Below are positions 10,910 to 55,173 of a stretch of DNA of 64,000 bases, one piece after another (positions within the stretch are counted from its first letter, which is position 1; every line of letters starts with the position of its first letter). Origin of the DNA: a bacterium (lineage in GTDB: Bacteria; Hydrothermota; UBA3073; JACQXS01; JAGMCI01). Below the pieces are notes generated by a model. The model ran no database searches and was not told the origin of the DNA. It saw only the letters and a list, made by a program, of their open reading frames with translations. Made by a program: the position numbers and the translations under genes. Location of the stretch: the NCBI GenBank assembly GCA_030018315.1, contig JASEGA010000003.1, positions 7,246 through 71,245 on the forward strand, read 5' to 3'.

Positions 10910-11541
10910 TATAAACTATTAGGCTTAAGTTTTCTCTTTTCTTGCATTTCCTTAATTGTTGGTATATTAGCAATTATAGCCACAATTAAAAATACAATGA
11001 TAAATGGAGTAAGCCATATTCTTTGGGCCCAGTATATCCACACTATTAAGCTAAACACAACTGCAAATGTGGTTATTATCACCTTCGGGTCTCGTGGTTT
11101 CCTTTGAACAAAAAAATAAGCAGCTACGGCAATAGGTAATATCTTGGGTATAAGGTAAAAGAATACACCACCAGAAGTAGATACTCCTCTCCCTCCTTTA
11201 AATTTATTGAAGAGCGGCCAACAGTGGCCACAAAATGCAGCTATCCCAGTAAGACCTACAAAAAATGAGTGTAGGGGCGAGGTAACCTCGCCCCTACTAA
11301 TTATAATCCATCTCCCTGTGAGCATTTTTGCACTTATAAGCATAGCAATAGCACCCTTAGCAGTATCAAGTAACCACACAAGAACTCCATAGGGCTTACC
11401 AACTTCACGAAGCACATTGGCAGCACCAGGATTTTTTGTCCCCACCTCCATGATATTAATTCCTTTTACAAGTTTACTTATGGGTATCGCAAATAGAATT
11501 GACCCAATAATATACCCAATTATAATGCTCAAAAATTCCAT
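10909..11541 (-). CDS. plsY: Glycerol-3-phosphate acyltransferase PlsY with in-frame palindromic insertion
   Basis: GTKNPGAANVLR motif. Element B at 11271-11297 encodes SRGEVTSPL. Confidence 0.85.
   Translation of the reverse strand: MEFLSIIIGYIIGSILFAIPISKLVKGINIMEVGTKNPGAANVLREVGKPYGVLVWLLDTAKGAIAMLISAKMLTGRWIIISRGEVTSPLHSFFVGLTGIAAFCGHCWPLFNKFKGGRGVSTSGGVFFYLIPKILPIAVAAYFFVQRKPRDPKVIITTFAVVFSLIVWIYWAQRIWLTPFIIVFLIVAIIANIPTIKEMQEKRKLKPNSL
11271..11297. repeat. Palindromic element B (GTAGGGGCGAGGTAACCTCGCCCCTAC) inside plsY
   Basis: 13-bp arms around a single central base. Shares GTAGGGG/CCCCTAC termini with element A. Confidence 0.8.
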
Positions 11542-11622
11542 CTAAAAAGCAAATGTAACAAGTGACAGCGAATAAGACGAATACTTTTCCGTAGGATTCT
11601 GCGAAAATCTCATTCCACCTAT

Positions 11623-12087
11623 TTATTTTTCTGCTTTGGGTAACATTCCCTCTGGAGACGGCTGACTCTTGGATTCGTGACTACGGGGTGTGAAAATAGG
11701 AGTAGTTGACTTTATTAGCTGTTTAGCTTCTGTAGCCGCCTTTTCACTCGAGGTATCGCCTCTCATTTTGCAGTTACCATCAAATATTACCCCTTCTTCT
11801 ATTACAAGTTGTTTACATCTCATATCTCCTATGAGGATTGAGCCAGATTTAAACTCAAGCCTCCCATTTGCAAAGAGGTTGCCATTTATTTTACCACCTA
11901 TTAAGCCATCTTTTGTATGTATTTCGCCATTGACTATGCCAGATTTACCTATGATGATGGACTCTGTAATCTCTATGTTGCCATCAACTATACCATCTAT
12001 ATGAATGCTGCCCTCCACTTTTAGCTTCCCGTTAATTGAAGTCCCCTTGCCTATAATATTTGTGATTACAGCTTTTGGTTCCCTCAT
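11623..12087 (-). CDS. Bactofilin (DUF583 polymer-forming cytoskeletal protein)
   Basis: Repetitive beta-helical G-rich motifs (IDGIVDGNI, IIGKSGIVNGEI). Confidence 0.8.
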   Translation of the reverse strand: MREPKAVITNIIGKGTSINGKLKVEGSIHIDGIVDGNIEITESIIIGKSGIVNGEIHTKDGLIGGKINGNLFANGRLEFKSGSILIGDMRCKQLVIEEGVIFDGNCKMRGDTSSEKAATEAKQLIKSTTPIFTPRSHESKSQPSPEGMLPKAEK

Positions 12088-12095
12088 ACGACCTC

Positions 12096-12929
12096 CTATT
12101 TAATTAAATAACGCTCAGGGTTCTGAGGTACCCTATTTAACTGCACCTCATAATGAAGATGAGGTGCAAAACTCTTCCCCGTTGTCCCCACAAATCCTAT
12201 TAAGTCACCACGGCTAATCTTACTACTATTTTCTACATTTACTCTTGCAAGATGTCCATATACTGTAGTAAATCCATTATCATTTGTAACCTCAACTAAA
12301 TTACCAAGCGATTCATCAAACCCAACAAATTCAACAACTCCATCCATTGTTGCAAATACTGGAGTCCCAAATGGAGCAGCAAAATCAATGCCAGGATGTT
12401 CAGGTGAAAATCTCCTTGTTATCCACCCCTTCACAGGATAAATTGACGGGATTAACCTTTGCTCTTTTGCAGCTTCTTCAAGAATAGTTTTAACTTCATC
12501 ATCCGCCTCAGATGAAGGGTTTGAATACAATTCCTGCCTATTAGCAGAGGGGTCTAACGTAAATTGGGCTGTTAGTCTTTCCTCAGTTAAGTTTTGAGTT
12601 GTTTCAGTATGCTCAATACCAAGCATATTTGCTATTTTAACAGTCTTAAGTTTGAACTCGTTAAACTCACGCTCAAATGCAATTAGTTTCTCATACTCTT
12701 TACGAAGTTTTTGGTTCTCATCCTTTAAAGCTTTTATTTCCAAACTCTTCTTGAGTATATTCCCATATTCAAAAATTAGCCACCCCGCACCACCAAATAT
12801 ACAAATAAATATACCACATAATATCCAAGCAACAAGCTGTGAAATCGTATAAGTTTTTGTCCTGCCACCAGAACTTGAAACTATAAGAATAGAAAATCGC
12901 CTACGCATCCGGAACTCCAGGTGGGCCAC
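12096..12929 (-). CDS. M23 (LytM) family metallopeptidase with N-terminal TM and coiled coil
   Basis: HxGxDF...GTTGKSFAPHLHYE motif set. Confidence 0.85.
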   Translation of the reverse strand: MAHLEFRMRRRFSILIVSSSGGRTKTYTISQLVAWILCGIFICIFGGAGWLIFEYGNILKKSLEIKALKDENQKLRKEYEKLIAFEREFNEFKLKTVKIANMLGIEHTETTQNLTEERLTAQFTLDPSANRQELYSNPSSEADDEVKTILEEAAKEQRLIPSIYPVKGWITRRFSPEHPGIDFAAPFGTPVFATMDGVVEFVGFDESLGNLVEVTNDNGFTTVYGHLARVNVENSSKISRGDLIGFVGTTGKSFAPHLHYEVQLNRVPQNPERYLIK

Positions 12930-13803: not shown

Positions 13804-13844
13804 TATTTTATAATCATTGAGATAGACTGAATATCCATGATTAT

Positions 13845-13886
13845 CTGTCTACATCAATGACATATTCACTTCAGTTTACATCAATG
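13845..13886. repeat. Two tandem copies of the short motif YCAGTYTACATCAATG, with a reverse copy at 13815-13830
   Basis: The same 15-16 nt motif recurs at 4455-4470, 4489-4505, 8980-8994, 26063-26077 and 28432-28447. Confidence 0.6.
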
Positions 13887-14669: not shown

Positions 14670-14699
14670 CCTGTTAGACTCTTAGACTTTTAGACTGTT

Positions 14700-15323
14700 T
14701 TAGTAGCCCCATATTTCATGCAGGTAAGTTGACCTCCTGCATCTCGGGCATAGTAATCTAAGATGACCTGACCTGTAAGGGGACACTTTCAGGTGAGATG
14801 GAGGAGCTTCCCCGATAAATCGGGGTTCAATTGTACCTAATTCTTTGCTTAGTATAAGCCATAGAGTTGGGTTATCATATGCCAACTCCCCTAACTTTTT
14901 AGCAATCCATTTGAGCTGTGTTTTTGGAGCTATGACCTCACCACACTCATCGCATAAAATAAGCTCAAACTCAGTTTTAGTTTCATACCCATCTTTTGTA
15001 AGCTGTGCAATGTCATATTCCTGAGTATGCTTAAGTGCATCAGTCGGACAGTAGTCAACACATTGACCACAATAAATGCAACGTTCCTGATGGTAGATTA
15101 GCGTACGTATTCTTTTATCTTTATCATCCTGTACTTCTCTTGCCTTTGATGGACAAACTTCAACACAGGCACTACAACCAATACACTTTACCTCATCAAT
15201 TGCCATTATGCCCCTAAACTTAGCGGCTGCCGGTGAAGGTGCATATGGAAATTTAACAGTATAGGGTCCTTTGACAAGCGCCCTTATCGCCTCACCTAAT
15301 TCCCTAATTTTAGGTCTTTTCAT
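14700..15323 (-). CDS. 2x[4Fe-4S] ferredoxin subunit (NuoI/EchF/HycF-like) with Cys-rich C-terminal extension
   Basis: CIGCSACVEVCP and CIYCGQCVDYCP motifs plus extra CDECGE...CPRCRR. Confidence 0.75.
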   Translation of the reverse strand: MKRPKIRELGEAIRALVKGPYTVKFPYAPSPAAAKFRGIMAIDEVKCIGCSACVEVCPSKAREVQDDKDKRIRTLIYHQERCIYCGQCVDYCPTDALKHTQEYDIAQLTKDGYETKTEFELILCDECGEVIAPKTQLKWIAKKLGELAYDNPTLWLILSKELGTIEPRFIGEAPPSHLKVSPYRSGHLRLLCPRCRRSTYLHEIWGY

Positions 15324-15339
15324 ATCACTCTTTACACAC

Positions 15340-16521
15340 TCAGACTTTTAGACTGTTTTTCCTCTTTAATTCTTCTGTTTTTTCCCATGATAGCTTTAAT
15401 AGCTCCTTGCCTGATAATTTTTTCCCTTTATAATAAGCAGTAGCCATCCGTTCTGTACAACAATAACATGGGTCAACTGATGCAAGCACCAATACAGCGT
15501 CTGAAATAGTATAGCCTTTGACAGCTACCTCATTAGATGGCACATTCATATAACTTGGGGCACGTACCTTATATCTAACTGGTATATTTGAACCATCTGA
15601 ACGTACATAATGAAATACCTCCCCTCTCGGCGCCTCTGCCCTGCCAATCCCTTCACCAGGAGGTATGTCTTCAACTCTTGTTTGTATCTCACCATGGGGC
15701 ATCCTTTTCAAGCATTCTCTTATTATCTTTATGGATTCAATGCATTCCAAAAGTCTGACCTTTGCCTTAGCAAGTAAATCGCCTTCTTCAAACACTATAA
15801 TATTCCATGGAATAAGGTCATAAGCTGCATATGGGTCATCTTTACGTACATCAATGGCAAGCCCAGAACCACGCGCTGTAGGACCTACAGCTCCGTATCT
15901 GATAGCCTCCTCTTTGGTTAGGACTCCTACTCCTTCAAGCCTACCTGCTATTACAGGGTCATCCAGAATAGCCTTTATAAACATATCAGTCTTAGATTCA
16001 AGCAGGTTCATAACCTTATCAATCTCCTGCATATCTTTATCCTCAATATCACGCCTTACCCCTCCTACTTTCATCATCGCATAATGGTTACGGTTACCTG
16101 TAATTAATTCAAACAGCTGTAGAATAGGCTCACGATAGCGCCAAAACCACATCCATACAGTATTGTAGCCCATAAAGTGGCCAGCCAAACCTACCCATAA
16201 GAAATGTGAATGAATACGCTCAAGTTCAGCAATTATTGTGCGTATATATTTAGCACGCTCAGGTATCTCAATATGGGCTAGGTCTTCTACTGCCTGAACA
16301 CATGCAATAGGATGAGAATTTGAACATATACCACATATCCTTTCTACAAGGAATGGGATTTGTTCATATGTCATCTTCTGTGCTAGGTATTCATGACCAC
16401 GATGATTGTATCCTATGTTTATCTCCAGTCCAGTTACTTTTTCACCTTCAACCTCAAGTTTGAAGAATTCAGGCTCATCTTGGAGTGGGTGATACGGACC
16501 TACAGGTATAATAGTCTTCAT
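15340..16521 (-). CDS. [NiFe] hydrogenase large subunit, group 4 (energy-converting type, NuoD-like)
   Basis: N-terminal RICGICSNSH (RxCGxCxxxH) and C-terminal DPCYCCTER (DPCxxCxxR) Ni-binding motifs. Confidence 0.85.
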   Translation of the reverse strand: MKTIIPVGPYHPLQDEPEFFKLEVEGEKVTGLEINIGYNHRGHEYLAQKMTYEQIPFLVERICGICSNSHPIACVQAVEDLAHIEIPERAKYIRTIIAELERIHSHFLWVGLAGHFMGYNTVWMWFWRYREPILQLFELITGNRNHYAMMKVGGVRRDIEDKDMQEIDKVMNLLESKTDMFIKAILDDPVIAGRLEGVGVLTKEEAIRYGAVGPTARGSGLAIDVRKDDPYAAYDLIPWNIIVFEEGDLLAKAKVRLLECIESIKIIRECLKRMPHGEIQTRVEDIPPGEGIGRAEAPRGEVFHYVRSDGSNIPVRYKVRAPSYMNVPSNEVAVKGYTISDAVLVLASVDPCYCCTERMATAYYKGKKLSGKELLKLSWEKTEELKRKNSLKV

Positions 16522-16946: not shown

Positions 16947-16988
16947 TTAGACTTTTAGACTCTTAGACTTTTAGACTGTTTTTCCACT

Positions 16989-17393
16989 TCATAACTTACT
17001 CAACACTTTGACAATACCCATGATTATAGCCTCAGGTTTAGGTGGACATCCCGGAATATATGCGGCTACTGGCAAGTATTTGTCATATGGACCTACTATA
17101 TTATACGAACCACAAAATATACCACCAGAACAGGCGCAACTGCCAACTGCAATCACTAAACAAGGTTTAGGTGTTTGTTCGTAAATCCTTAAAACTCTCT
17201 CTTTTGCCTTTAGGTTAAGTGCCCCTACTACAAGCAACACATCTGCATGACGAGCTGAGCCAACAAGTCTTATCCCAAAACGCTCAAGGTCATATCTTGG
17301 AGTCAGTGCATCAAGTATCTCAATATCACAATTGTTGCATGAACCACTTGATACATGGAATACCCATATCGACTTCTTTAAAGCCCAGCTCAT
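16989..17393 (-). CDS. Hydrogenase small subunit, NuoB-like
   Basis: CNNCDIE, GSCACSGG and PGCPP cluster-binding motifs. Confidence 0.8.
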   Translation of the reverse strand: MSWALKKSIWVFHVSSGSCNNCDIEILDALTPRYDLERFGIRLVGSARHADVLLVVGALNLKAKERVLRIYEQTPKPCLVIAVGSCACSGGIFCGSYNIVGPYDKYLPVAAYIPGCPPKPEAIIMGIVKVLSKL

Positions 17394-17925: not shown

Positions 17926-17926
17926 T

Positions 17927-26104: not shown

Positions 26105-27601
26105 TTAATAACGGATGTAAAAAGCTAATAAGCTAGCTAACCAGAAAAACAGAAGTGAAGTCACAAGTTTTATAGACACAGCATGCTTTCTCCAGAATAG
26201 GGTCAAATTTATAGATGTCGTCCCTCTATATGATGCAGTAAATACAATTGCTAATGGAAGGATAAATCCAAAGTTGTATAAAAATAAATAAGCTAATCCT
26301 TTTAGCTTGAGTGAAGACGACTTGACCACAAACAGGATAGTAGGTAGGTAAACTTGACCCGTACATACAAATTCACATATAGATATAAGAAAACCAATAA
26401 TTGCAGCTGATAGAATATAACTTCGCATCTCCATCTTTTGACGGATGATATCATCTATCCTTTTCTTAAAAAATTTAGGTAATTTCAGTTTGGCTTCTTC
26501 ATAGTTACCGGCTCTTAGTTTAAAGTAATCGTAGATACTTAACCCGCCAAATACTACAGCTAAAATTGCTGTTATAGAAAAAATTGCCTTCCGGAATATT
26601 GGGATAAACTCGCAATTTCTTATAAACTGAAATATTCCCATACCAATAAGAAAGTATGTAATAAACACAGAAGAAGTAAAAGTTATACCTGCTAATAGTA
26701 ACTCCTTGCCCTTTTTACCAATAAATGATAGAAATGATATGAATAGAACAACTGTAGCAATAGCACACGGATTTACTCCATCAATTAGACCTGCAAATAT
26801 AACAGTTAAAACACCCATCGTATTAAACCTGTCCCTGATATCTATTTCAGATTTATCTTTAACCTCTTTAGCTTCTTCCCAGGGTATTTTTGTCCCACTT
26901 ATTTTGTATTTTTCAATAAGGTCTATTATCTTTTTTCTGTTAATCTCTTTACCTATCAAAAATTCCTCTCCAATAAAAACTGCTGGAGTGACAAGTCTTC
27001 TCTTTTTTGGTACATTGTATAATTGGCACAAGGCTTCGTTTAGCTTTTTATTCTCTATGTCTCCAATATCAAACTTTTTAATTGTAAGATTGGTATACTT
27101 ACTCTCTAAGTATTTTAGTTCATAATTTATCCTATCGCATTCTCTACACATTTTTTTATAAAAGTAGGCTATATATATCATCTTTGCAGTTGTATCTTGA
27201 GTAGGAACAGCTCTTTTCATTTCTATCTCAGGGAACTCGCACCCCGTCTCTCTATACCGCTGAATTATCTTTTCTAAATTCTTCTTTATCTCCTTATCAC
27301 CACCAAGTATATATTCTCCAACAACTACAACAGGAATTTCATTATTTGTATCTTTGTACTTTTCTTCAAGTCTTACCAGCAGTTCATAGTTATTAGGTTC
27401 AGTGATTTCAAAAGATTTCATATTAAGATTATATTTTTGTTTAAGTGGTGTAATAATCTTTTTAATCACTTCTTGACAATACTTACAATCCTCTGAATAA
27501 AAGAAATAAAACTTTATCTCAGGGGACTGTCCCCGGATGGGGACTGTCCCCGTTGTAAAAATAAATGTAAATACTAAATACTTTCTCATCAGTATCTCCA
27601 T
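26105..27601 (-). CDS. Thioredoxin-like domains fused to a CcdA/DsbD-type membrane domain (thiol-disulfide transporter)
   Basis: CKYC and CRECDR motifs N-terminally. The NPCAIATVVLF... TM core is CcdA-like. Carries element D in-frame at 27522-27551. Confidence 0.6.
   Translation of the reverse strand: MEILMRKYLVFTFIFTTGTVPIRGQSPEIKFYFFYSEDCKYCQEVIKKIITPLKQKYNLNMKSFEITEPNNYELLVRLEEKYKDTNNEIPVVVVGEYILGGDKEIKKNLEKIIQRYRETGCEFPEIEMKRAVPTQDTTAKMIYIAYFYKKMCRECDRINYELKYLESKYTNLTIKKFDIGDIENKKLNEALCQLYNVPKKRRLVTPAVFIGEEFLIGKEINRKKIIDLIEKYKISGTKIPWEEAKEVKDKSEIDIRDRFNTMGVLTVIFAGLIDGVNPCAIATVVLFISFLSFIGKKGKELLLAGITFTSSVFITYFLIGMGIFQFIRNCEFIPIFRKAIFSITAILAVVFGGLSIYDYFKLRAGNYEEAKLKLPKFFKKRIDDIIRQKMEMRSYILSAAIIGFLISICEFVCTGQVYLPTILFVVKSSSLKLKGLAYLFLYNFGFILPLAIVFTASYRGTTSINLTLFWRKHAVSIKLVTSLLFFWLASLLAFYIRY
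27522..27551. repeat. Element D: tandem GGGGACTGTCCCC hairpins (GGGGACTGTCCCCGGATGGGGACTGTCCCC) inside a CDS
   Basis: Encodes TGTVPIRGQSP. A related triple copy at 37965-38006 encodes SGTVSIRGQSP. Confidence 0.7.
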
Positions 27602-28771: not shown

Positions 28772-29500
28772 TTACCTAATTACAATTATTTTCTTTGTTA
28801 TACTGTTATCACCAGCTATAAGCTTACAGAAATATACACCGGACTCAACCTCATTCCCGGCTAAATCTGTACCATCCCAGGAAACAGCAGTGATTAGTGA
28901 TAAGTGGTTATCCGAAGGATCCTGTGGAGTGATAAGTGAGAAAGACTTAACTAATCTGCCAGTTAGGTCATAAATTTGTAGTGTAGGGGTTTGATTAATC
29001 AAACCCCTACCTAATCCCTGAGCCCTAATAACAGTTTTCTTCCTGAATGGATTAGGATAGACTTCTAATACCTCGTCATCCGGTATTCGGATTTCGGATT
29101 TTATCGTCTCTTCTACTCCCTGAGCATCAACCTTTATTAGATAAACATCAAACCCTCCTGCACCATATGAATGAGTCGCTCCAGCTATAATGTAGCCACT
29201 ATCTTTCGTCTGTGCTACTGAGTTGCCATAGTCATCATCGGTTCCACTGTATGTCTTTGTCCAGATTGTGTCACCAGTTGAATTTACCTTTATTAGATAA
29301 ACATTACCAAATCCTGCACCGAATGAGTAAGTATATCCAGTTATAATATAGCCACCATCCAATGTTTGTGCTACTGAATAGCCACGGTCAGAATCAGGCC
29401 CACCATATGTCTTTTCCCAGCCCGCTACTGCTATCTTGGATAAAAGTGGCAACCAAATTATAGCCACCACTGTCATAGCCTTAGCCATTAGTTTATACAT
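28772..29500 (-). CDS. Secreted beta-propeller repeat protein with T9SS C-terminal domain, interrupted in-frame by palindrome A
   Basis: Signal peptide. GYIIAGATHSYGAG repeats. CTD ...SWDGTDLAGNEVESGVYFCKL. Element A at 28983-29010 encodes GRGLINQTPT. Confidence 0.7.
   Translation of the reverse strand: MYKLMAKAMTVVAIIWLPLLSKIAVAGWEKTYGGPDSDRGYSVAQTLDGGYIITGYTYSFGAGFGNVYLIKVNSTGDTIWTKTYSGTDDDYGNSVAQTKDSGYIIAGATHSYGAGGFDVYLIKVDAQGVEETIKSEIRIPDDEVLEVYPNPFRKKTVIRAQGLGRGLINQTPTLQIYDLTGRLVKSFSLITPQDPSDNHLSLITAVSWDGTDLAGNEVESGVYFCKLIAGDNSITKKIIVIR
28983..29010. repeat. Palindromic element A (perfect) inside a CDS
   Basis: GTAGGGGTTTGATTAATCAAACCCCTAC. Confidence 0.85.
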
Positions 29501-29643: not shown

Positions 29644-30102
29644 TTAGGATTTTTCATATACTTTCAAAATCTCTGTAATAACAGGTTTAAACTTTGTATT
29701 CTTAGCTATCTTGGTATTAAGTGGTTTCAAGCACAGTAAATAAGCTATTAAAAACACAAATCCACCTATTACACCAAAAGTTTCAGTCCCTATTATTCCC
29801 TTTACTACTCCAAACCCTATCCCAAAAGCAACTAATGGAAGGATAAAAAGTAAGAATGCAGAAAGCAAGGTGCTTTTAGGACTCGTCTCTATTCTCACTA
29901 ACTCATTAACCTTTATAAGTAGGGACACGCCATGGCGTGTCCCTACAACTGCCTCAACTACCATCTTATTTCCGTGAGGATTACAAAACATCCGCGCCGT
30001 ACACTTCTCACAAAAACCCTTAGGCTCAATCTCTACCTTAGCTAATTTTTCGCCAGAGGTGCAACCTCCTGATATCTCTATAACTCTACCTACTTCTTCC
30101 AT
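29644..30102 (-). CDS. RseC/MucC-family membrane protein with in-frame element C and element E
   Basis: N-terminal Cys-containing soluble domain and two TM helices. Element C at 29919-29946 encodes GTRHGVSL. Element E lies at 30055-30069. Confidence 0.45.
   Translation of the reverse strand: MEEVGRVIEISGGCTSGEKLAKVEIEPKGFCEKCTARMFCNPHGNKMVVEAVVGTRHGVSLLIKVNELVRIETSPKSTLLSAFLLFILPLVAFGIGFGVVKGIIGTETFGVIGGFVFLIAYLLCLKPLNTKIAKNTKFKPVITEILKVYEKS
29919..29946. repeat. Palindromic element C (perfect 28-bp palindrome GTAGGGACACGCCATGGCGTGTCCCTAC)
   Basis: Copies also at 37570-37595 and 54583-54610, all inside CDSs. Confidence 0.85.
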
Positions 30103-31382: not shown

Positions 31383-32366
31383 CTACATAAATCCTTGTGC
31401 TTTCATCCAATCATCGTTAAAGATTTTACTCAAATACTTATGCCCGCTATCCGGTAAAATAGCAACTACAATTTGAGGTGATACCTCTTTTTCTTTTTCC
31501 AATTTTTTCGCCACTTCAATAGCTGCCCACACTGCTGCACCACTGGAGCCACCTGCAAAAATACCTTCCTCTTTTAAAAGTCGTCTTGTCATAATAAAAG
31601 AATCCTTATCCGATACCTGAATCATATCATCAATATACTCAAACTTCATAGTCTCACACAACATCTCCATACCTATGCCTTCAACAAGGTAAACTTTTGG
31701 CTCAATAAGTCTTTTATACTTAAAATAGTCACAATATACTGACCCGATAGGGTCTACACCAATTACTTTAATTTCCGGATTTTTCTCCTTTAGAAATTTG
31801 CCAACCCCTGAAATTGTACCACCTGTCCCAGCTCCTATAACTACATAATTAACTTTGCCATCAGTCTGTTCCCAAATTTCTGGTCCCGTAGTTTTATAGT
31901 GTGCTTCAACATTCTTCTCGTTGTGATATTGATTTATCAAGTAAGAATTGGGTGTTTTCTCAGCAATACGTTTAGCTACCTCATGATAAGACTCAGGTGA
32001 GTCAGGTGCAACATCAGTAGGGCAGACTATTACCTCTGCCCCAAATACTTTAAGTAAATCAATTTTCTCTTTACTCATCTTATCCGGGATAGTAAAAACT
32101 GCCTTGTACCCCTTAACAGCTGCATACATAGCTAAGCCAACACCTGTGTTGCCACTTGTATTCTCAACAATTGTGCCACCAGGCTTCAATAGGCCACACT
32201 TTTCAGCCTCCTCTACCATATAAATTGCCATCCTATCTTTCAGTGAACCACCGGGATTAAAGAACTCAAGTTTTGCTAAAACAGTCGCTTTTATACCACG
32301 AGTTACTCTATTCAATTTTATAAGCGGAGTATTACCTACAGTTTCTAAAATATTATTATACCACAT
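31383..32366 (-). CDS. Cysteine synthase / cystathionine beta-synthase-like PLP enzyme (paralog 1)
   Basis: Fold-type II PLP motifs (SVKDR, GNTG, GTGGT). Start taken at MWYNNILE, matching its paralog. Confidence 0.85.
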   Translation of the reverse strand: MWYNNILETVGNTPLIKLNRVTRGIKATVLAKLEFFNPGGSLKDRMAIYMVEEAEKCGLLKPGGTIVENTSGNTGVGLAMYAAVKGYKAVFTIPDKMSKEKIDLLKVFGAEVIVCPTDVAPDSPESYHEVAKRIAEKTPNSYLINQYHNEKNVEAHYKTTGPEIWEQTDGKVNYVVIGAGTGGTISGVGKFLKEKNPEIKVIGVDPIGSVYCDYFKYKRLIEPKVYLVEGIGMEMLCETMKFEYIDDMIQVSDKDSFIMTRRLLKEEGIFAGGSSGAAVWAAIEVAKKLEKEKEVSPQIVVAILPDSGHKYLSKIFNDDWMKAQGFM

Positions 32367-34780: not shown

Positions 34781-35773
34781 TTAGACTAATGTAGGGGTTT
34801 GATTAATCAAACCCACAATGAATGGGACTGAGCAACAAGTCTTTTGATATTGTATTTCTAATTCATACTCCTTTGCTTTTCTTATTGCTGCTTCTGACAC
34901 TAATGCGATTCTATTAAATCCATGCTCCACAGCTAATACATCAATCTTAGGGTTATTCCTTGGACGCGCACAGCCCAAAGCTATAGGAGTATTGGGCATT
35001 TTTATTCTAAGCGTTGCCATAATTTTAGCTATAGAGTTAAGGCTTGGTAACGCTATATTTTCCATAGGAGTTCCTAAAAGTGGCATCAACACAACTACAA
35101 CTACACAGGCTACCTTATATTTACTAACTATATTAATAGCTCTGTATTCACCTTTAATTTTGCCATAATGTAAACCAATTATGATATGAGGCACAATAGG
35201 AAGCCCAGCATTTTGTAATGCATCCAATGACTCTATTATCTTGTTTATGCCAAAATCCACATGATAGACCTTTTGCAATGTCTCATCGTCCCCTATTACA
35301 TCAATAAGGGCTTGGTCTACACCTGCATCTTTTAGTTGCACTGCTATCCCAGTGTCTATTATTCCACTATGTATTGAGATAAGTAGACTCGTTTTTTCTT
35401 TTATTTCTTTTATAGCAGGGATAAAATTAGCCCAAGGTAAACTGCCATCTTTTTGGCTTCCACCAGTAATCAGACACCCTATGTTACCATTTCTTTCTAA
35501 CTCTATGCATTTTCTTATTAGTTCAGCTGGTGTAGTCGCAAATATCATTGACTTAAGCATCTTTGAATTACAGTGGTCACAGGTAAGCTCACATTTATCA
35601 CCAGTTATTGATATAGCAGGATATTTACCCCATTCACTATCACATCTGAACATACCAGGGTGATAGAAAGTTATATTCTTGCCAAAGTTATGCCAAGATA
35701 GTTCTCTTGCTTTATTAAGCAAATCCGTTATTTCTACCTCGCCGTCGGGTAGGCGGATTTCGTCATTCGTCAT
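34781..35773 (-). CDS. Radical SAM protein, biotin-synthase-related (second LipS-type candidate) with C-terminal element A fusion
   Basis: CELTCDHC motif. Start taken at MTNDEIRL. The C-terminus ...FIVGLINQTPTLV* is supplied by element A at 34791-34815. Confidence 0.6.
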   Translation of the reverse strand: MTNDEIRLPDGEVEITDLLNKARELSWHNFGKNITFYHPGMFRCDSEWGKYPAISITGDKCELTCDHCNSKMLKSMIFATTPAELIRKCIELERNGNIGCLITGGSQKDGSLPWANFIPAIKEIKEKTSLLISIHSGIIDTGIAVQLKDAGVDQALIDVIGDDETLQKVYHVDFGINKIIESLDALQNAGLPIVPHIIIGLHYGKIKGEYRAINIVSKYKVACVVVVVLMPLLGTPMENIALPSLNSIAKIMATLRIKMPNTPIALGCARPRNNPKIDVLAVEHGFNRIALVSEAAIRKAKEYELEIQYQKTCCSVPFIVGLINQTPTLV

Positions 35774-36977
35774 TATAATACTCTTTAAATGCAACCCAGC
35801 ATTTCCTGACCACACTCCAAAAGTCATTGCGAGTCCCGACAAAGGGTGGGACGAAGCAATCTTCCATAAACTTCCTTTTTACACATGCACGTGTAAGTTC
35901 AGCACCGAATATTTTACGCCATTCGTGTTCATATTCTGATAGTATATCAAGATTACCTTCTCTTATTGACTTGGCAGCTACTCGACCTGCAATTTTGCCA
36001 CATATAACAGCTTGAGGTATTCCACCACCAGTTATAGGATGAGTCTGACCTGCAGCATCACCTACTAAAATTGTATTCTCCTTATATGTCCTCTTCAAAG
36101 GACCACCTACTGGAATTAATCCACCTGTAACTGAAAGTTGGCTACCCTTAAGTTTACCACCGCTCTTTAACTTATCAACAAAATATTCCAATAACTCACT
36201 CAATCTCTCTTGATTGCTAAGTTCAAGGCTAAAACCTTGAGTTACATCTTTTAAATTTGGAATTTGGAATTTGTAATTTGTATTTTGTTTTATTCCTATT
36301 CCTACATTTGCAATCTTACCTTTTGGAAACAGCCATCCATAACCACCAACAAATTTATGGTCAAAGTAGACTTCAGTCCAATCCATCACAGTTGTGAGTG
36401 GCATTTCATATTGCAAAGCAGTAACAAAAGTTGTATTAGTTTCACCTACCCAACTCCCAACTGTAGATTGTGGCCCATCAGCTCCAATTATCACTTTTGC
36501 ATAGAGTTCTAAGTTTTTACCGTTTTTCTTACCTGTCGGCAGACAAGTATTTACAATTATTCCATTCTTTGTTTTAGAAATACACAATGTATTAAGTAAT
36601 ACATCTACTCCAATATTTTGTGCCCTTTGTACTAATTCTTTATCAAAAATAGCTCTATTTAATATATACCCGGGGGATTGTGTCTCAAAACATTTTCCCA
36701 AAATGTCATTGCGAGTCACGACCTTTGTCGGGACGAAGCAATCGCCATCCACTATGTAAGTTTTCATTGAATTTATTTCCTGTGCAATACTATCAGCTGT
36801 AAATTTTACCTCTTGTGATAGTAATTTAGGTACAAACTCAGCACACTGGACAGGCTCACCTACAACCTTCCTCTTTTCAAGCAATAATACTTTTGTACCT
36901 AATTTAGATGCTTCATACGCAGCAGATGCTCCTGCAGGACCAGCACCTACAACCACTATATCATATCGTTTCGTCAT
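35763..36977 (-). CDS. FAD-dependent oxidoreductase, geranylgeranyl reductase family, with three in-frame repeat insertions
   Basis: VVVGAGPAGASAA Rossmann motif. V-family elements at 36705-36743 (GDCFVPTKVVTRND) and 35823-35861 (EDCFVPPFVGTRND). A hexamer repeat at 36256-36290. Confidence 0.8.
   Translation of the reverse strand: MTKRYDIVVVGAGPAGASAAYEASKLGTKVLLLEKRKVVGEPVQCAEFVPKLLSQEVKFTADSIAQEINSMKTYIVDGDCFVPTKVVTRNDILGKCFETQSPGYILNRAIFDKELVQRAQNIGVDVLLNTLCISKTKNGIIVNTCLPTGKKNGKNLELYAKVIIGADGPQSTVGSWVGETNTTFVTALQYEMPLTTVMDWTEVYFDHKFVGGYGWLFPKGKIANVGIGIKQNTNYKFQIPNLKDVTQGFSLELSNQERLSELLEYFVDKLKSGGKLKGSQLSVTGGLIPVGGPLKRTYKENTILVGDAAGQTHPITGGGIPQAVICGKIAGRVAAKSIREGNLDILSEYEHEWRKIFGAELTRACVKRKFMEDCFVPPFVGTRNDFWSVVRKCWVAFKEYYNDE
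35823..35861. repeat. V-family element GTCATTGCGAG-[hairpin]-CGAAGCAATC
   Basis: Copies at 35823-35861, 36705-36743, 38615-38656, 56234-56269 (reverse) and 61483-61508 (reverse). Confidence 0.75.
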
Positions 36978-36994: not shown

Positions 36995-38605
36995 TTATTG
37001 AATTGCATCCATAACCTCTTTTAACAACCCAATGTTTAGCTCAGTTTGACTCTCAAACCTGCCTTTATATGCTTCTTCAACCTTACCTAATTCGTAACAA
37101 GTAGTGTTATCTATATCAATCAATATTCCACCTAACCCTATATCCTCAAGTTCTTCTCTATGCTTTGCATAAAATGGCTCACAACAGCACCCAATATAAG
37201 AGGTGATACCGTCTCTTTTATACCTTTTAAGGGTTGACATTAGATGCTCAAAACTTACTATTGTTGTGACCATCATAGACCGCTCTCTCCCAATCCTATA
37301 TGCCTCACCAACACTACATTTGCCACACTCAGTGCAGAAATCTTTATATCTAAACTTGCAAACTTTCAGTTTTGCACAATATGGAAGAAGTAGGGGCAAT
37401 TCATGAATTGCCCCTACATGCTGAAGAATAATTTTAGAGAATGTCCCATTAACAGTGAATACTCTATTCCCCAATGGAAGCGGGATACCAAATTTTACGA
37501 GTTCAATTTTTTCCAATGCCTCATTAATTGCGGAGATAAAATCAGACGGCTTGATTCCAGGTATCTTGGGTAGGGACACGCCATGGCGTGTCCCTTTGAA
37601 AAATTGATTGATTTTATTTTGGACAGTTATTTTATCTGCCCTTATATCTTTGAGAATAGCTTCCAAGTCAAATATTGCCCTCTTTGGATACGCAAAGAAA
37701 TCGCCTGTTATGAGTGCACTCTCTATCTGATTACGCTTCGTATTAACTACAAGTGAAGTCCTAATCAATCCACCTTCTGCTTTATAAACTGAATGTGCAA
37801 CTTGGCGAGTATACGCTGGCTCTTTAACTTTATTAATCCATTTATTTGACTTAAATTTATTTAGTTTTTGGTAAAACAGCAACTCTTCATCTTTTGTCAA
37901 CCCACCCTTAATCAATTCAATCCCAAATTCTTTTTCAAACCCCTGTTTTAGTATTTGTTTTATAGGGGACTGTCCCCGAATGGAGACTGTCCCCGAATGG
38001 GGACACCCAAGTTCCCATTTTAGACAAGTAACTCGTTCTTTAACAGAGTCAATCTCTTTATCTTTGAGCTTTTCTATAGGAATACGAAGTGCTCTAAGCA
38101 TTGTATTAACATCAAAGTCTACAAGGAGCGTACCTTGAAATAAAAATGCCTCTCCTTCTTCTGTGCCACCTGTGCCAGAAATCTTTCTACCATTGACTTC
38201 AATATCATTTCTAGGCCGAAATTTTGCATTTATCCCTAATCTCTTGAGCGCATAAATAACAGGTTGACATAAATCCTTAAAGAAAGATTCGTTTACAATA
38301 CTGGTTTTAAAAAATGACTTCTCACAGATAATCTCCCAGCCAAGCTGTGACTCATCAAAATAAATTGCACCACCACCTGTAATTCTTCTGTTCACATCTA
38401 TACCATTTTTATTGCAGAAGTCAAGTCTAACCTCTTGTTCTACGGTCTGATGATAACCAACTAATACTGCAGGTGGATAAAATTGTAAGAACCTAACAGT
38501 ATTTGGAGAAAGCTTTTTACTTTTAGTCTCAAGCAATGTCTCATCCATTGCCATATTTTCAGCCGCTGTCCTCACCCCTGTATCAAGTAACCGCCACTTA
38601 CTCAT
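36995..38605 (-). CDS. Lipoate-protein ligase A-like protein with Cys-rich C-terminal extension, carrying elements C and D in-frame
   Basis: The N-terminus matches LplA (RRITGGGAIYFDESQLGWEII...). Extra C-terminal CxxC pairs. Element C at 37570-37595 (KGTRHGVSL). Element D triple copy at 37965-38006. Confidence 0.7.
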   Translation of the reverse strand: MSKWRLLDTGVRTAAENMAMDETLLETKSKKLSPNTVRFLQFYPPAVLVGYHQTVEQEVRLDFCNKNGIDVNRRITGGGAIYFDESQLGWEIICEKSFFKTSIVNESFFKDLCQPVIYALKRLGINAKFRPRNDIEVNGRKISGTGGTEEGEAFLFQGTLLVDFDVNTMLRALRIPIEKLKDKEIDSVKERVTCLKWELGCPHSGTVSIRGQSPIKQILKQGFEKEFGIELIKGGLTKDEELLFYQKLNKFKSNKWINKVKEPAYTRQVAHSVYKAEGGLIRTSLVVNTKRNQIESALITGDFFAYPKRAIFDLEAILKDIRADKITVQNKINQFFKGTRHGVSLPKIPGIKPSDFISAINEALEKIELVKFGIPLPLGNRVFTVNGTFSKIILQHVGAIHELPLLLPYCAKLKVCKFRYKDFCTECGKCSVGEAYRIGRERSMMVTTIVSFEHLMSTLKRYKRDGITSYIGCCCEPFYAKHREELEDIGLGGILIDIDNTTCYELGKVEEAYKGRFESQTELNIGLLKEVMDAIQ

Positions 38606-48899: not shown

Positions 48900-49371
48900 C
48901 CTTCCCCCTCTGTTTGTATTCGTCCAAAATATCTTGCAAGCTCATATCATTAAGAATCTTGCTAAATTCCTTACTTAACCTATTCCATACAACTCTTGCT
49001 ACACAGTTATTTATTCTATCACACTCTCCGGTTGAGGTTTCACCTCTTGGCACACAGTTTGAAAGCTTAATAGGACCCTCAAGTGCATATAAAATATCGC
49101 CTACCTTTATTTTCTTAAGTGGCTTTTTAAGTTTATACCCACCACCAGGTCCTCGCACAGATTCAACCAATCCCGCTATATTAAGGTCGTGAAAAATTCT
49201 CTCCAAGTAAGCCATAGGAATACACTGTTTTTCAGATACACTCTTAACCGAAGTAGGGGCTTGATTAATCAAACCCCTACCTTGCCCATTTTTAGCTTGC
49301 CTCGCCAAGTCAAGGCGGGCAAGCTCAATCATTGCCCGTAGCCCATATCTACCTTTACTTGAAATCCTCAT
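48892..49371 (-). CDS. Rrf2-family regulator (IscR-like) with in-frame palindrome A insertion
   Basis: MRISSKGRYGLRAM... Rrf2 N-terminus and CVPRGETSTGECDRINNC ligand cysteines. Element A at 49253-49280 encodes GRGLINQAPTS just upstream of the HTH. Confidence 0.8.
   Translation of the reverse strand: MRISSKGRYGLRAMIELARLDLARQAKNGQGRGLINQAPTSVKSVSEKQCIPMAYLERIFHDLNIAGLVESVRGPGGGYKLKKPLKKIKVGDILYALEGPIKLSNCVPRGETSTGECDRINNCVARVVWNRLSKEFSKILNDMSLQDILDEYKQRGKDG
49253..49280. repeat. Palindromic element A variant (GTAGGGGCTTGATTAATCAAACCCCTAC) inside the iscR-like gene
   Basis: In-frame insertion. Confidence 0.8.
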
Positions 49372-51978: not shown

Positions 51979-51988
51979 AATGGAAACT

Positions 51989-53269: not shown

Positions 53270-53276
53270 GTTTTAT

Positions 53277-53361
53277 ATATACTGGAGTTTCCCCATTTTT
53301 TGTTTTTTTTCTTAAATTATGAAATTTATACTATAAATTTTGGGGAAACTCCAGTTATATA
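53277..53361. promoter_or_regulatory. 19-bp inverted repeat (ATATACTGGAGTTTCCCC ... GGGGAAACTCCAGTTATAT) flanking a 48-nt AT-rich spacer between divergent genes
   Basis: Arms at 53277-53294 and 53343-53361. The right arm plus flank repeats the motif at 1048-1071. Confidence 0.5.
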
Positions 53362-53556
53362 CTAATAATATTATTTGTTAGAGTCGAGTATTGAGCAGTG
53401 AGAATTGGGAATCCCCGCTTCTCGCTACTCGCTTCTCCATTTAGGATTTGGTCCACCTCAGGCAGATTGACATTTGAGCTTTGGATGTGTAGTTTAGTAA
53501 ATATTTTATTTGACAAACAGGGTAATCCCTGTTATTTTACAAATCAAGGAGGTAAA

Positions 53557-54552
53557 ATGAAAAGGTGTTTACTTATTGTAGTTTTATTCCTTATTGGGTG
53601 TGCCAGTCAATATATGACTGCTGGTAAAGTTTACATGCAACAAGAGGAATATAAGAAGGCAGAGGAGCAATTTAAGCAACAACTAAGTCAAAATCCACTT
53701 GACCCTGATGCTTGGTGGTGGCTTGGCACAGCTTATGTTTACGAGAAAGAGTATGAGGAGGCATGTAAATGTTTTGATAAGATAGCAGAGATAGTACCAG
53801 AAAAAAAGGAGTTAAAAAAGGACAAGCCTTTTTTGTGGTCAGTGTATTACGATGCAGGACTACAGGCGCAACGTAATGAAGACTGGGGACTTGCCAAAAA
53901 ACGATTTAAAAAGGCTACTGAATTTGAGCCCGACTCTTCAATCGCATATGTAAACTTAGCATGGATATTCTCAAAATTAGGTGAAGAAGATACAATGATA
54001 GCATATTATAATAAAGCAATTGAACTTAATCCTAATAATTTAGAACCGTATCGGAATTTGGGTATTTATTATATAAAAGCCGAAAAATACAACCAAGCTA
54101 TTGATTATTTTAAGCAAGGTTTAGCTATAGATTCCACAGATGCGCATCTCCTGTATAGATTAGGTGTTTGTTATTTCTACAAAGAGGATTATCCAAATGC
54201 TAAGAATGCATTTGAGCGTGTAATTAGAGCTGACTCTACATTAGAGGATGCATATTTTAATCTCGGTGCTATCTTAATAAAAGAGAAAAAGTATAACGAA
54301 GCAGTTAAGGTTTTAAGTAGAGCAGTTACATTAAGACCGGACGATATCGAAGCCCTATCTCATTTAGGTGGTGTCTATCTTATTATGGGCGAATACAAAA
54401 ATGCAGTAGATACTTATACTAAAATTATCGACCTTAATCCTACAAATGTAGATGCTTATGAGGGCAGAGCCAACGCTTATTGGAAGCTTGGGATGAAGAA
54501 GGAGGCAGATGCTGATTTGAATAAGGCAAAAGAGTTACACAAAGAGAAATAG
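53557..54552 (+). CDS. TPR-repeat lipoprotein
   Basis: SD AAGGAGGT then MKRCLLIVVLFLIGC lipobox. Multiple TPR units. Confidence 0.75.
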   Translation: MKRCLLIVVLFLIGCASQYMTAGKVYMQQEEYKKAEEQFKQQLSQNPLDPDAWWWLGTAYVYEKEYEEACKCFDKIAEIVPEKKELKKDKPFLWSVYYDAGLQAQRNEDWGLAKKRFKKATEFEPDSSIAYVNLAWIFSKLGEEDTMIAYYNKAIELNPNNLEPYRNLGIYYIKAEKYNQAIDYFKQGLAIDSTDAHLLYRLGVCYFYKEDYPNAKNAFERVIRADSTLEDAYFNLGAILIKEKKYNEAVKVLSRAVTLRPDDIEALSHLGGVYLIMGEYKNAVDTYTKIIDLNPTNVDAYEGRANAYWKLGMKKEADADLNKAKELHKEK

Positions 54553-54558
54553 GAGACT

Positions 54559-55173
54559 GTGTTATCCGATAACACTATCCATGTAGGGACACGCCATGGC
54601 GTGTCCCTACTCGTAATATTATTTTGCTCTTCATCACTTTCACATTGTTTGCATAGATTGGACTTTAGGCTTTGGATTTATAGAAATATGGGTATCCGTT
54701 ATATGAATGAAAGACAATACGATAAAGCTATTAATTATTTTAAGCGTGGTTTAAGCATAGATTCAACAGATGCGAAGATTTGGCATCAGCTTGGTGTTTG
54801 TTATTTCTATAAAGGTGATTGCATAAATGCTAAAGAGGCGTTTGAGTATACAATTAAGTATGACTCTACATTAGAGGACACTTACTTCAATCTCGGTGTT
54901 CTCTTAATAAAGGATAAAAGATATGACAAAGCAGTAAAAGTTCTAAATAAGTTAGTTAAACTTAAACCGGACGATATTTCTGCACTTTTACATTTAGGTA
55001 GTGTTTATCTAATTATTGGAGAATATAAAAAGGCAGTTGATATTTATACTAAAATCATAAAATTTAATCCTGATAATTTAGAGGCTTATGAAGGTAGGGC
55101 TACTGCTTACTGGAAGCTTGGGCTTGATAATAATGCAAAAGCTGATTTAATACGAGCAAAAGAGTTACATTAA
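54559..55173 (+). CDS. TPR-repeat protein, diverged tandem duplicate of the 3' half of the upstream gene, beginning with element C
   Basis: Residues after ~50 align with the C-terminal ~160 aa of the upstream gene. The N-terminus MLSDNTIHVGTRHGVSLL is encoded by palindrome C at 54583-54610. Confidence 0.55.
   Translation: MLSDNTIHVGTRHGVSLLVILFCSSSLSHCLHRLDFRLWIYRNMGIRYMNERQYDKAINYFKRGLSIDSTDAKIWHQLGVCYFYKGDCINAKEAFEYTIKYDSTLEDTYFNLGVLLIKDKRYDKAVKVLNKLVKLKPDDISALLHLGSVYLIIGEYKKAVDIYTKIIKFNPDNLEAYEGRATAYWKLGLDNNAKADLIRAKELH

What the first reader, a model, noticed from the sequence alone, without database searches (positions are those of the whole stretch)
11271..54610. Sister palindromes B and C share the GTAGGG...CCCTAC termini and are also in-frame in core genes; one sits at a duplication junction
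Element B, GTAGGGGCGAGGTAACCTCGCCCCTAC at 11271, lies inside plsY and encodes RGEVTSPL. Element C, GTAGGGACACGCCATGGCGTGTCCCTAC, lies at 29919 in the RseC-like gene, at 37570 in the lplA-like gene and at 54583. All encode GTRHGVSL. The shared terminal GTAGGG/CCCTAC, with different cores, suggests one mobile family recognised by a common factor. The 54583 copy sits exactly where the second TPR gene diverges from being a tandem duplicate of the first. That placement hints these elements promote or mark recombination.
Basis: seen in the sequence. Interest (0 to 1): 0.75.

Follow-up and report, generated by a model that had tools for sequence, protein, structure and literature searches.

The report
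Double-foot GTAG REP palindromes inside genes
The 27-28-base palindromes are real, but they are a known kind of tiny bacterial repeat (GTAG-tagged "REP" hairpins tied to RAYT tyrosine transposases) that here often sits in frame inside housekeeping genes; the suggested link to a gene duplication does not hold.

Summary
The window holds at least 13 copies of 27-28-nt palindromes with GTAGGG...CCCTAC ends, in five core types. Seven are exact matches to the motif, against 0.01 expected by chance. B lies in plsY. C lies in an RseC-family gene, in an LplA-DUF116 gene and between two TPR paralogs.

They match the "double-foot" REPs (5' GT[AG]G, 3' C[TC]AC) described for RAYT/TnpA_REP subclass 2.4 by Quentin et al. 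2018. Intragenic GTAG REPs were already reported by Di Nocera et al. 2013.

The exact C 28-mer occurs in 75 genome loci from many phyla, and in 8 of them it sits inside a RAYT gene just after the HuH motif. The exact B 27-mer occurs in more than 120 metagenome stretches, at least 9 of them inside a separate RAYT clade. So B and C are sister REP families with different cognate enzymes, not one common factor.

Reading "in frame" is mostly forced, because the TAG in GTAG closes one phase. Elsewhere C is read in two phases.

The 54583 copy is 69 nt from the TPR homology boundary, and it is intact while the paralogs are 24% diverged. No RAYT gene lies in the window.

Verdict: new member of a known kind, modest interest.

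The parts
11271..11297 (.). Type B REP (27 nt, GTAGGGGCGAGGTAACCTCGCCCCTAC), inside plsY, read as RGEVTSPL
   Evidence: ssDNA hairpin -14.1 kcal/mol; falls in a 14-residue gap relative to Aquifex PlsY 5xj5
29919..29946 (.). Type C REP (28 nt, perfect), inside the RseC_MucC-family gene, read as VGTRHGVSL
   Evidence: hairpin -13.5 kcal/mol
37570..37597 (.). Type C REP with one damaged foot (ends CCCTTT), inside the LplA-DUF116 gene, read as KGTRHGVSL
   Evidence: homologs at 56-65% identity lack this segment
54583..54610 (.). Type C REP (perfect), 31 nt downstream of the first TPR gene's stop; either intergenic or codons 9-18 of a GTG-started second TPR ORF
37390..37417 (.). Type D REP (GTAGGGGCAATTCATGAATTGCCCCTAC), inside the LplA-DUF116 gene, read as VGAIHELPL
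8942..8969 (.). Type A REP (GTAGGGGTTTGATTAATCAAACCCCTAC, perfect; palindrome extends to TTGTAG...CTACAA), intergenic between thiC and hypA
   Evidence: Logan contigs of the same sample break here
28983..29010 (.). Type A REP (perfect), inside a protein with a T9SS C-terminal sorting domain, read as RGLINQTPT
49253..49280 (.). Type A REP (1 mismatch), inside an Rrf2-family regulator gene, read as RGLINQAPT
8743..8770 (.). Decayed type A copy inside hypA (RGLINQTPT)
34791..34816 (.). Partial type A copy at the C-terminal end of a radical-SAM gene (GLINQTPT)
1931..1958 (.). Decayed type A copy, intergenic, upstream of a gas-vesicle gvpA-like ORF
7876..7903 (.). Decayed type D-like copy inside the Mrp/NUBPL-type ParA ATPase gene
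8475..8502 (.). Type E variant (GTATGGACACGGCACGCCGTGTCCATAC), between the hypA stop and the ATPase gene; start codon ambiguous
10909..11541 (-). plsY host gene
29644..30102 (-). RseC_MucC-family host gene
36995..38605 (-). LplA-type ligase + DUF116 host gene carrying C, D and a third palindromic insert (37952-38017)
53398..54552 (+). First TPR gene (probable lipoprotein; likely real start at MKRCLL...)
54559..55173 (+). Second TPR ORF; residues 41-204 are 66% identical to residues 218-381 of the first

Best explanation
B and C, together with A, D and E, are GTAG-tagged REP elements of the "double-foot" type. Each is a 12-bp G+C-rich stem with a 3-4-nt loop, with GTAG at the 5' foot and its complement CTAC at the 3' foot. 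Both strands therefore present the same substrate.

Such REPs are the cognate DNA of RAYT/TnpA_REP enzymes. These are HuH-Y1 single-strand DNA endonuclease/transferases related to the IS200/IS605 transposases. They bind the folded hairpin, read the GTAG foot, and cut and rejoin single-stranded DNA. Here the relevant enzymes belong to subclass 2.4 (Bertels group 4), or are 2.4-like.

[quoted passage not shown] Copies that land in genes survive only if they keep the frame, avoid the TAG phase and fall in tolerant loops or termini. That filter is why the surviving copies look "in frame in core genes".

What is shown: the repeat family, the hairpins, the association of exact B and exact C with RAYT genes, and the frame constraints.

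What is inferred: that a RAYT encoded elsewhere in this genome spreads the copies seen in the window, and the biochemical steps, which are taken from work on other RAYTs.
For: Enrichment and structure:
- 7 exact motif matches against 0.01 expected; at least 13 copies in five core types.
- All types fold as ssDNA hairpins of -11.5 to -14.1 kcal/mol, z about -6.4 to -7.5.
- An unbiased GTAGGG..CCCTAC census over 1.23 Mb of window plus loci gives lengths almost only 27 or 28 (skewed, because the loci were fetched with the exact 27- and 28-mers). The 21 distinct 28-mers keep at least 6 of their 8 inner pairs through two-sided changes.

Link to RAYT genes:
- Exact C occurs in 75 genome loci of many phyla. 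It is inside a RAYT-profile ORF in 8 of them and 140 bp from one in a ninth.
- Exact B occurs in more than 120 metagenome stretches. It is inside RAYT ORFs in at least 9 and within 15 bp of one in 4 more.
- These ORFs hit NCBIfam NF047646 REP_Tyr_transpos at 9e-17 (the 61-bit score is below the model's curated cut-off of 80), Pfam Y1_Tnp weakly and PDB 4er8 TnpA_REP weakly. They carry NH[VIL]H, WQ and YIxNNP motifs.
- All 22 aligned homologs carry 1-5 palindrome-derived peptides right after HuH.

Literature:
- Subclass 2.4 has double-foot REPs (5' GT[AG]G, 3' C[TC]AC) and in-frame REP insertions inside tnpA_REP between HuH and Y (PMC6006769).
- Intragenic GTAG REPs are known, with Opitutus terrae the richest case (PMC3733652).
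- RAYTs process cognate single-stranded REPs in vitro (PMC8266576 abstract).

DNA rather than peptide is conserved: the same 28-mer is read as VGTRHGVSL or as RDTPWRVPT inside RAYTs that are only 33-55% identical.
Against: - No RAYT gene lies in the 64-kb window, nor in the roughly 5.4 kb and 2 kb recovered beyond its two ends. The link to an enzyme in this genome is therefore untested.
- Classical REPs are mostly extragenic. Here 9 of 13 copies are inside ORFs.
- 28 nt is not a multiple of 3, and no target-site duplication is visible. A plain insertion would shift the frame, and the net length gain relative to homologs varies (+1 to about +15 residues).
- B-type RAYTs have YIxENP, YIxYNP or similar rather than YIxNNP, so their assignment to subclass 2.4 is only approximate.
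- RAYT-driven REP transposition has not, to my knowledge, been shown in vivo for any system.
Confidence: 0.85

Rival explanations
1. Cassette exchange. The elements do not mainly spread by insertion into naive sites. Instead one 28-nt REP type replaces another, or overwrites a loop, at established slots. The mechanism would be RAYT-catalysed strand exchange at the shared GTAG feet, or hairpin-templated conversion. Because 28 nt replaces 28 nt, the frame is automatically kept, and old sites look freshly perfect.
For: - Orthologous hypF genes carry three different 28-mers (two perfect, one with a single mismatch) at exactly the same nucleotide slot, all followed by TGGC[AG]GT. An ortholog at 63% identity has 25 unrelated nt there, a net difference of only +3 nt.
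- The two internal slots of orthologous RAYT genes (L003 versus L062, 79% nt identity) hold the same two REP types in swapped order, with a colinear spacer.
- Variants differ by symmetric changes on both arms.
- An identical 28-mer sits in RAYTs that are only 33-55% identical.
Against: - It rests on a few loci that were ascertained by searching for the exact 28-mer.
- Symmetric drift under selection for the hairpin, or repeated insertion at a hot spot followed by trimming, could give the same pictures.
- No filled/empty or type-A/type-B polymorphism was found within a population.
- No biochemical precedent was found in the papers read.
Confidence: 0.3
2. The segments are selected protein modules: short peptide loops such as GTRHGVSL or RGEVTSPL that add a function to the host proteins. 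The DNA palindromy would be incidental.
For: The copies in the window's genes are all read in one phase per type. The same loop of T9SS sorting domains is occupied in the window (type A) and in L039 (type C).
Against: - The same DNA is read in two phases, giving unrelated peptides.
- Perfect copies also lie between genes (8942; many loci).
- The host proteins are unrelated (PlsY, RseC, LplA, Rrf2, HypA, HypF, UvrC, Tgt).
- Core variants keep base pairing, not the peptide.
Confidence: 0.03
3. The palindromes are recombination hot spots that generated the tandem TPR duplication.
For: One perfect C copy lies between the two TPR paralogs. Small indels occur next to REP feet in related genomes (L009 versus L007).
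Against: - The element is 69 nt from the start of similarity, and there is none at the other end of the duplicated block.
- The paralogs are 24% diverged in nucleotides, while the element is 28/28 identical to copies in other phyla.
- Another tandem paralog pair in the window (31671-33223) has no such element at its junction.
Confidence: 0.04
4. Assembly or sequencing artefact, such as adapter-like palindromes or chimeric joins.
For: The short-read Logan assembly of the same sample breaks contigs at the 28-mers.
Against: - The elements are spanned within contigs in two separate assemblies of this genome, the NCBI MAG contig and the Logan contigs; whether both used the same reads was not established.
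- They keep reading frames open, and they decay like ordinary sequence in orthologs.
- They occur in hundreds of unrelated projects.
Confidence: 0.01

Closest known systems
"Double-foot" REPs of TnpA_REP/RAYT subclass 2.4 (Bertels RAYT group 4); Quentin et al. 2018, BMC Genomics 19:475 (PMC6006769)
   Same: - 5' GT[AG]G plus 3' C[TC]AC feet on a long perfect hairpin.
- The stem bottom is made of G-C pairs.
- The cognate RAYT carries NH[IFV]H / WQ / YIxNNP motifs.
- REPs are inserted in frame inside the RAYT gene between HuH and Y.
- The distribution is scattered over many phyla.
   Different: - These particular 27/28-mers were not found in any searchable paper.
- The host is an uncultured lineage whose best protein matches among the fetched loci are Candidatus Stahlbacteria MAGs, at only 48-59% identity.
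- The intragenic share is very high (9 of 13).
- At least five core types occur within 64 kb.
- No RAYT is seen in the window.
- B-type RAYTs deviate in the Y motif.
GTAG-tagged REP families and REPtrons; Di Nocera et al. 2013, BMC Genomics 14:522 (PMC3733652); Nunvar et al. 2010 (PMC2817692)
   Same: - GTAG tetranucleotide at the hairpin foot.
- Several families can share one genome, with repeat-specific RAYTs.
- The TAG of the foot interacts with ORF ends.
- Some REPs lie inside genes that still encode functional proteins.
   Different: - In the classical families GTAG is an unpaired tag at one end only, and stems are mostly 6-9 bp.
- Most classical copies are extragenic and often form dimers (BIMEs/REPINs).
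- Here the tag is paired on both ends and copies are mostly single.
Rickettsia palindromic elements (RPE)
   Same: Palindromic repeats inserted in frame in many housekeeping genes without destroying them (as summarised in PMC3733652).
   Different: According to PMC3733652, RPEs end in CGTC and no dedicated transposase is known for CGTC-tagged repeats. From my own knowledge, RPE-1 elements are about 100-150 bp long and confined to Rickettsia.
IS200/IS605 TnpA with subterminal hairpins
   Same: An HuH-Y1 enzyme recognises DNA hairpins in single-stranded DNA. Insertion leaves no target-site duplication, and none is seen here.
   Different: The mobile unit here is the 28-nt hairpin alone, not an IS carrying its own transposase. 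From the literature read, RAYT genes are typically single-copy (10.1101/119735 abstract).

Membership tests
GTAG-tagged REP / RAYT system | Short G+C-rich palindrome that folds into a stable stem-loop | tested here: met
   12-bp stems with 3-4-nt loops, -11.5 to -14.1 kcal/mol as ssDNA, z about -6.4 to -7.5
GTAG-tagged REP / RAYT system | Conserved GT[AG]G tetranucleotide at the 5' foot of the hairpin | tested here: met
   All exact copies start GTAG; variant E starts GTAT; decayed copies vary
GTAG-tagged REP / RAYT system | Dispersed, multi-copy, far above chance | tested here: met
   7 exact matches against 0.01 expected; at least 13 copies in 64 kb; 75 genome loci for C and more than 120 metagenome stretches for B
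GTAG-tagged REP / RAYT system | Physical association of the repeat with a RAYT (HuH-Y1) gene | tested here: met
   Met in other genomes: exact C inside 8 RAYT ORFs, exact B inside at least 9 and abutting 4 more. Not met in the window or its immediate flanks. The rest of this genome could not be read.
GTAG-tagged REP / RAYT system | Predominantly extragenic location | tested here: not met
   9 of 13 window copies lie inside ORFs. Intragenic REPs are a documented minority behaviour, so this lowers typicality rather than membership.
GTAG-tagged REP / RAYT system | The cognate RAYT binds and cleaves the folded single-stranded REP | not testable with these tools
   Needs an in vitro cleavage/strand-transfer assay of the kind used in PMC8266576
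Double-foot REP of RAYT subclass 2.4 | [quoted passage not shown] | tested here: met
   GTAGGG...CCCTAC in types A-D; GTATGG...CCATAC in E, compared with the definition in PMC6006769
Double-foot REP of RAYT subclass 2.4 | [quoted passage not shown] | tested here: met
   All 22 aligned C-type RAYTs carry 1-5 copies after MPNHVHGII. B-type RAYTs carry RGEVTSPL at the same place.
Double-foot REP of RAYT subclass 2.4 | RAYT motifs NH[IFV]H, WQ, YIxNNP | tested here: inconclusive
   C-type RAYTs fit (NHVH/NHIH, WQSRF, YIINNP). B-type RAYTs have NH[VLF]H and WQRNY but YIxENP, YIxYNP or YIxGNP.
Rickettsia palindromic elements | CGTC-tagged palindromic repeats (as summarised in PMC3733652); about 100-150 bp for RPE-1 (own knowledge) | tested here: not met
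   The elements here are 27-28 nt with GTAG feet
MITE | Terminal inverted repeats flanking a non-palindromic body, with target-site duplication | tested here: not met
   The whole element is a single hairpin. No consistent direct repeat flanks the copies.

The most novel reading that the evidence does not exclude
REP hairpins may behave as exchangeable 28-nt cassettes. Once a slot exists in a gene, including the slot inside the RAYT gene itself, one REP type would be swapped for another in place through the shared GTAG feet. This would explain four things:
- Non-multiple-of-3 elements stay in frame.
- Old orthologous sites carry flawless copies.
- Three different REP types occupy the identical nucleotide slot in hypF.
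- One exact 28-mer is shared by RAYT genes that have diverged to 33-55% identity across phyla.
Probability: 0.3. Interest if true: 0.6.

Novelty: new member of a known kind. Interest (0 to 1): 0.35.

Why it matters
It assigns a striking sequence pattern to a known system, and it removes a tempting but unsupported link to gene duplication.

The data also give an unusually clear natural example of how much in-frame REP load housekeeping proteins tolerate. PlsY, HypA, Rrf2, RseC, LplA-DUF116 and a T9SS sorting domain all carry copies within 64 kb.

B-type and C-type REPs each travel with their own RAYT clade and are embedded in its coding sequence. The exact identity of 27/28-mers across many phyla, and the re-use of one hypF slot by different REP types, are cheap leads for how RAYTs really move REPs. 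According to the Corneloup et al. 2021 abstract, REP dissemination mechanisms are still poorly understood.

On the practical side, these repeats break short-read assemblies, and they create spurious "hypothetical" peptides and ambiguous start codons.

Tried and rejected
- **RAYT gene in this genome.** I searched for one with a motif regex and with an HMM built from 22 homologs. Nothing was found in the window or in the flanks recovered from Logan contigs.
- **Filled versus empty alleles.** An all-against-all blastn of the roughly 200 loci held at that point found none. The closest relatives of the window's own proteins are only about 63% identical, so insertion boundaries could not be read at nucleotide level for the window's genes.
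- **Target-site duplication or a conserved target.** Flanks of 76 C copies and of the window copies show nothing consistent. There is only a mild excess of complementary T...A flanks.
- **Phage vectors.** Exact A, B and C have no hits in IMG/VR. D has 9 loci, none with a RAYT.
- **Rfam.** Only a tRNA reaches the gathering threshold.
- **Literature.** No paper holds the C core sequence.
- **Cyanobacterial small dispersed repeats and HIP1.** I considered these as the match, but my search returned no paper describing the former and HIP1 is an 8-mer, so neither was pursued once the RAYT link appeared.
- **Restriction-site or protein-binding palindromes (for example CCATGG).** Rejected because the cores vary while base pairing is kept.
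- **Terminators.** Rejected because most copies are inside ORFs, and the flanks I read show no obvious T-run; I did not run the terminator scan.

Full report
**1. What is in the window**

A search for GTAGGG-N(10-24)-CCCTAC gives 7 exact matches, where dinucleotide-preserving shuffles give 0.01. A palindrome scan and fuzzy searches raise the count to at least 13 copies, in five core types that share the feet:
- A: GTAGGGGTTTGATTAATCAAACCCCTAC at 8942, 28983 and 49253, with decayed or partial copies at 1931, 8743 and 34791.
- B: GTAGGGGCGAGGTAACCTCGCCCCTAC at 11271.
- C: GTAGGGACACGCCATGGCGTGTCCCTAC at 29919 and 54583, and at 37570 with a damaged foot.
- D: GTAGGGGCAATTCATGAATTGCCCCTAC at 37390, with a decayed copy at 7876.
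- E: GTATGGACACGGCACGCCGTGTCCATAC at 8475.

Each folds as single-stranded DNA into a 12-bp stem with a 3-4-nt loop, at -11.5 to -14.1 kcal/mol.

- PlsY: Pfam 4e-36, PDB 5xj5.
- An RseC_MucC-family protein.
- An LplA-type ligase fused to DUF116.

Further hosts are HypA, an Rrf2 regulator, an Mrp/NUBPL ATPase, a radical-SAM protein and a protein with a T9SS sorting domain. Nine of the 13 copies lie inside ORFs.

The LplA-DUF116 protein is longer than its nearest homologs (56-65% identity) at three places. Two are the C and D elements. The third is another small palindromic repeat.

**2. How much "in frame" means**

The TAG within GTAG closes one phase. Types A and D each have a single open phase, and C has two. 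Three C copies sharing one phase is therefore weak evidence.

In 75 loci from other genomes, C is read both as VGTRHGVSL and as RDTPWRVPT, and many copies lie in short open stretches that look intergenic. Conservation is at the DNA level.

**3. What the elements are**

The exact C 28-mer occurs in 75 stretches of GTDB representative genomes. The lineages include Bacteroidales, Ignavibacteria, Candidatus Stahlbacteria, Gracilibacteria, Terriglobia, Anaerolineae, Chlorobium, Kuenenia, Verrucomicrobiae and others.

A motif scan and an HMM built from 22 homologs give these positions:
- Exact C lies inside a roughly 200-aa HuH-Y1 ORF in 8 loci, and 140 bp from one in a ninth.
- Exact B lies inside such ORFs in at least 9 loci, and within 15 bp of one in 4 more.

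With one or two 600-bp genes of this kind per genome, by my rough estimate that is an enrichment of some hundred-fold or more.

The ORFs match NCBIfam REP_Tyr_transpos at 9e-17 (the 61-bit score is below the model's curated cut-off of 80). They match Pfam Y1_Tnp and PDB 4er8 (E. coli TnpA_REP) weakly. JGI names several homologs "REP element-mobilizing transposase RayT".

In an alignment of 22 homologs, every member has 1-5 palindrome-derived peptides immediately after MPNHVHGII. This accounts for lengths ranging from 161 to 256 aa.

C-bearing and B-bearing RAYTs form separate clades, 27-44% identical, with different backbones.

**4. Comparison with the literature**

Quentin et al. 2018 (PMC6006769) define TnpA_REP subclass 2.4, equal to Bertels group 4. 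Its motifs are NH[IFV]H, WQ and YIxNNP, and it occurs in Cyanobacteria, Bacteroidetes and various phyla. They state two things:
- It has "double foot" REPs, with 5' GT[AG]G and 3' C[TC]AC.
- Uniquely, REPs are inserted within the tnpA_REP genes between HuH and Y without breaking the frame.

Di Nocera et al. 2013 (PMC3733652) describe 24 GTAG REP families, REPtrons, repeat-specific RAYTs and intragenic REPs. Bertels et al. 2017 (PMC5581495) note that group 4 occurs in 17 bacterial classes. Corneloup et al. 2021 (PMC8266576) show that RAYTs process cognate single-stranded REPs in vitro and co-evolve with them.

The window's elements fit this description feature by feature. The exact C core sequence was not found in any searchable paper.

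**5. The duplication claim**

The second TPR ORF matches the first over 54679-55169 versus 54049-54539, at 76% nucleotide and 66% protein identity. The C copy at 54583-54610 lies 31 nt after the first gene's stop and 69 nt before the similarity begins.

It is a perfect copy lying between paralogs that are 24% diverged, so it most likely post-dates the duplication. A site just 3' of a gene is a usual REP location.

Whether it is translated depends on a GTG start at 54559 preceded by a poorly spaced AGGAG. Otherwise the gene starts near 54688.

**6. Open points**

- No RAYT gene is in the window or in the few kb recovered beyond it. Among the fetched loci, the best protein matches to the window are Candidatus Stahlbacteria MAG loci, at only 48-59% identity. 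One such MAG has at least 10 exact C copies.
- 28 nt is not a multiple of three, and no target duplication is seen. Net length differences from homologs vary: +14 residues in PlsY, about +5 at each LplA site, and +1 in HypF.
- In hypF of Ignavibacteria-like genomes, three different 28-mers (two perfect, one with a single mismatch) occupy exactly the same slot. An ortholog at 63% identity has 25 unrelated nucleotides there, and most of the 120 listed homologs show palindrome-like peptides at that loop.
- In orthologous RAYT genes, two REP types sit in swapped slots with a colinear spacer.

The last two points suggest in-place replacement of one REP by another. I rate this as a minority but testable reading.

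**7. Verdict**

The pattern is real and non-random. It is explained by a described system: double-foot GTAG REPs and their RAYTs. The recombination interpretation is not supported. It is a new member of a known kind and of modest interest. The cross-phylum identity of the 27/28-mers and the slot re-use are the only aspects that go beyond what I found in the papers I read.

Noticed in passing
L213, L197, L214, L215 (hypF, about 90 nt after the GYAPLP codons); L023:7414-7441: Three different 28-nt double-foot REPs (two perfect, one with a single mismatch) occupy exactly the same nucleotide slot in orthologous hypF genes. An ortholog at 63% identity has 25 unrelated nt there. Most of the 120 listed HypF homologs show palindrome-type peptides at this loop.
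   Followed up: partly
L003:4231-4306 versus L062:about 6540-6618 (inside RAYT genes): Two REP types (C, and a type with core ACATCCCATGGGATGT) sit in swapped order in the two internal slots of orthologous RAYT genes (79% nt identity), while the spacer stays colinear.
   Followed up: partly
window 37952-38017 and 27521-27552: Another small palindromic repeat (GGGGACTGTCCCC / TGTCCCCATTCGGGGACA, partly tandem). It adds about 7 residues to the LplA-DUF116 protein and recurs at 27521.
   Followed up: partly
window 5848, 28405, 41598, 41644, 41676, 49452, 49505, 50927: A further dispersed repeat, TCATTCTGAGCGAAGCGAAGAATCT and its complement, present in both orientations. Some copies form close inverted pairs, for example 41644/41676. 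It looks like a different REP/REPIN-like family without GTAG feet.
   Followed up: no
window 35819-35861 and 36701-36743: Two copies of GTCATTGCGAG...GGGACGAAGCAATC (81% identical). This is another hairpin-like dispersed repeat.
   Followed up: no
window 8942-8969; L001, L212: Short-read Logan contigs of sample SRR23186779 end at the type A 28-mer, so these repeats fragment k-mer assemblies.
   Followed up: partly
window 28983-29010 and L039 (T9SS sorting domain near its C-terminus): A type A copy (window) and a type C copy (an Ignavibacteriota MAG) sit in what looks like the same loop of the Por_Secre_tail domain in unrelated proteins.
   Followed up: no
L206 (IMG/VR contig, 14.8 kb): Seven exact type D copies lie in one contig labelled viral, and no RAYT was detected there. 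A, B and C have no exact hits in IMG/VR.
   Followed up: partly
L009:491 versus L007:620: Two Stahlbacteria MAGs are 96% identical over 6 kb and differ by a 9-nt indel (GAGAGTAGT) that abuts the 5' foot of a C copy.
   Followed up: no
L096/L164 and L115/L142: At orthologous sites the single unpaired centre base of B is A in one genome and T in the other. Both give Val. This could be inversion of the element in place or a simple transversion.
   Followed up: no
window 2057-2266; L212:6703-6912: A gvpA-type gas-vesicle protein gene (Pfam Gas_vesicle) lies next to a decayed type A copy.
   Followed up: no
window 31671-33223: A second pair of tandem paralogs (73-74% nt identity, spacing about 965 nt) has no GTAG palindrome at its junction.
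   Followed up: partly
window 14673-14708, 15331-15366, 16954-16989: A repeated TTAGACT-rich motif (TTTAGACTCTTAGACTTTTAGACTGTTTT) lies in the short gaps between three consecutive minus-strand genes. It may be a shared regulatory site.
   Followed up: no
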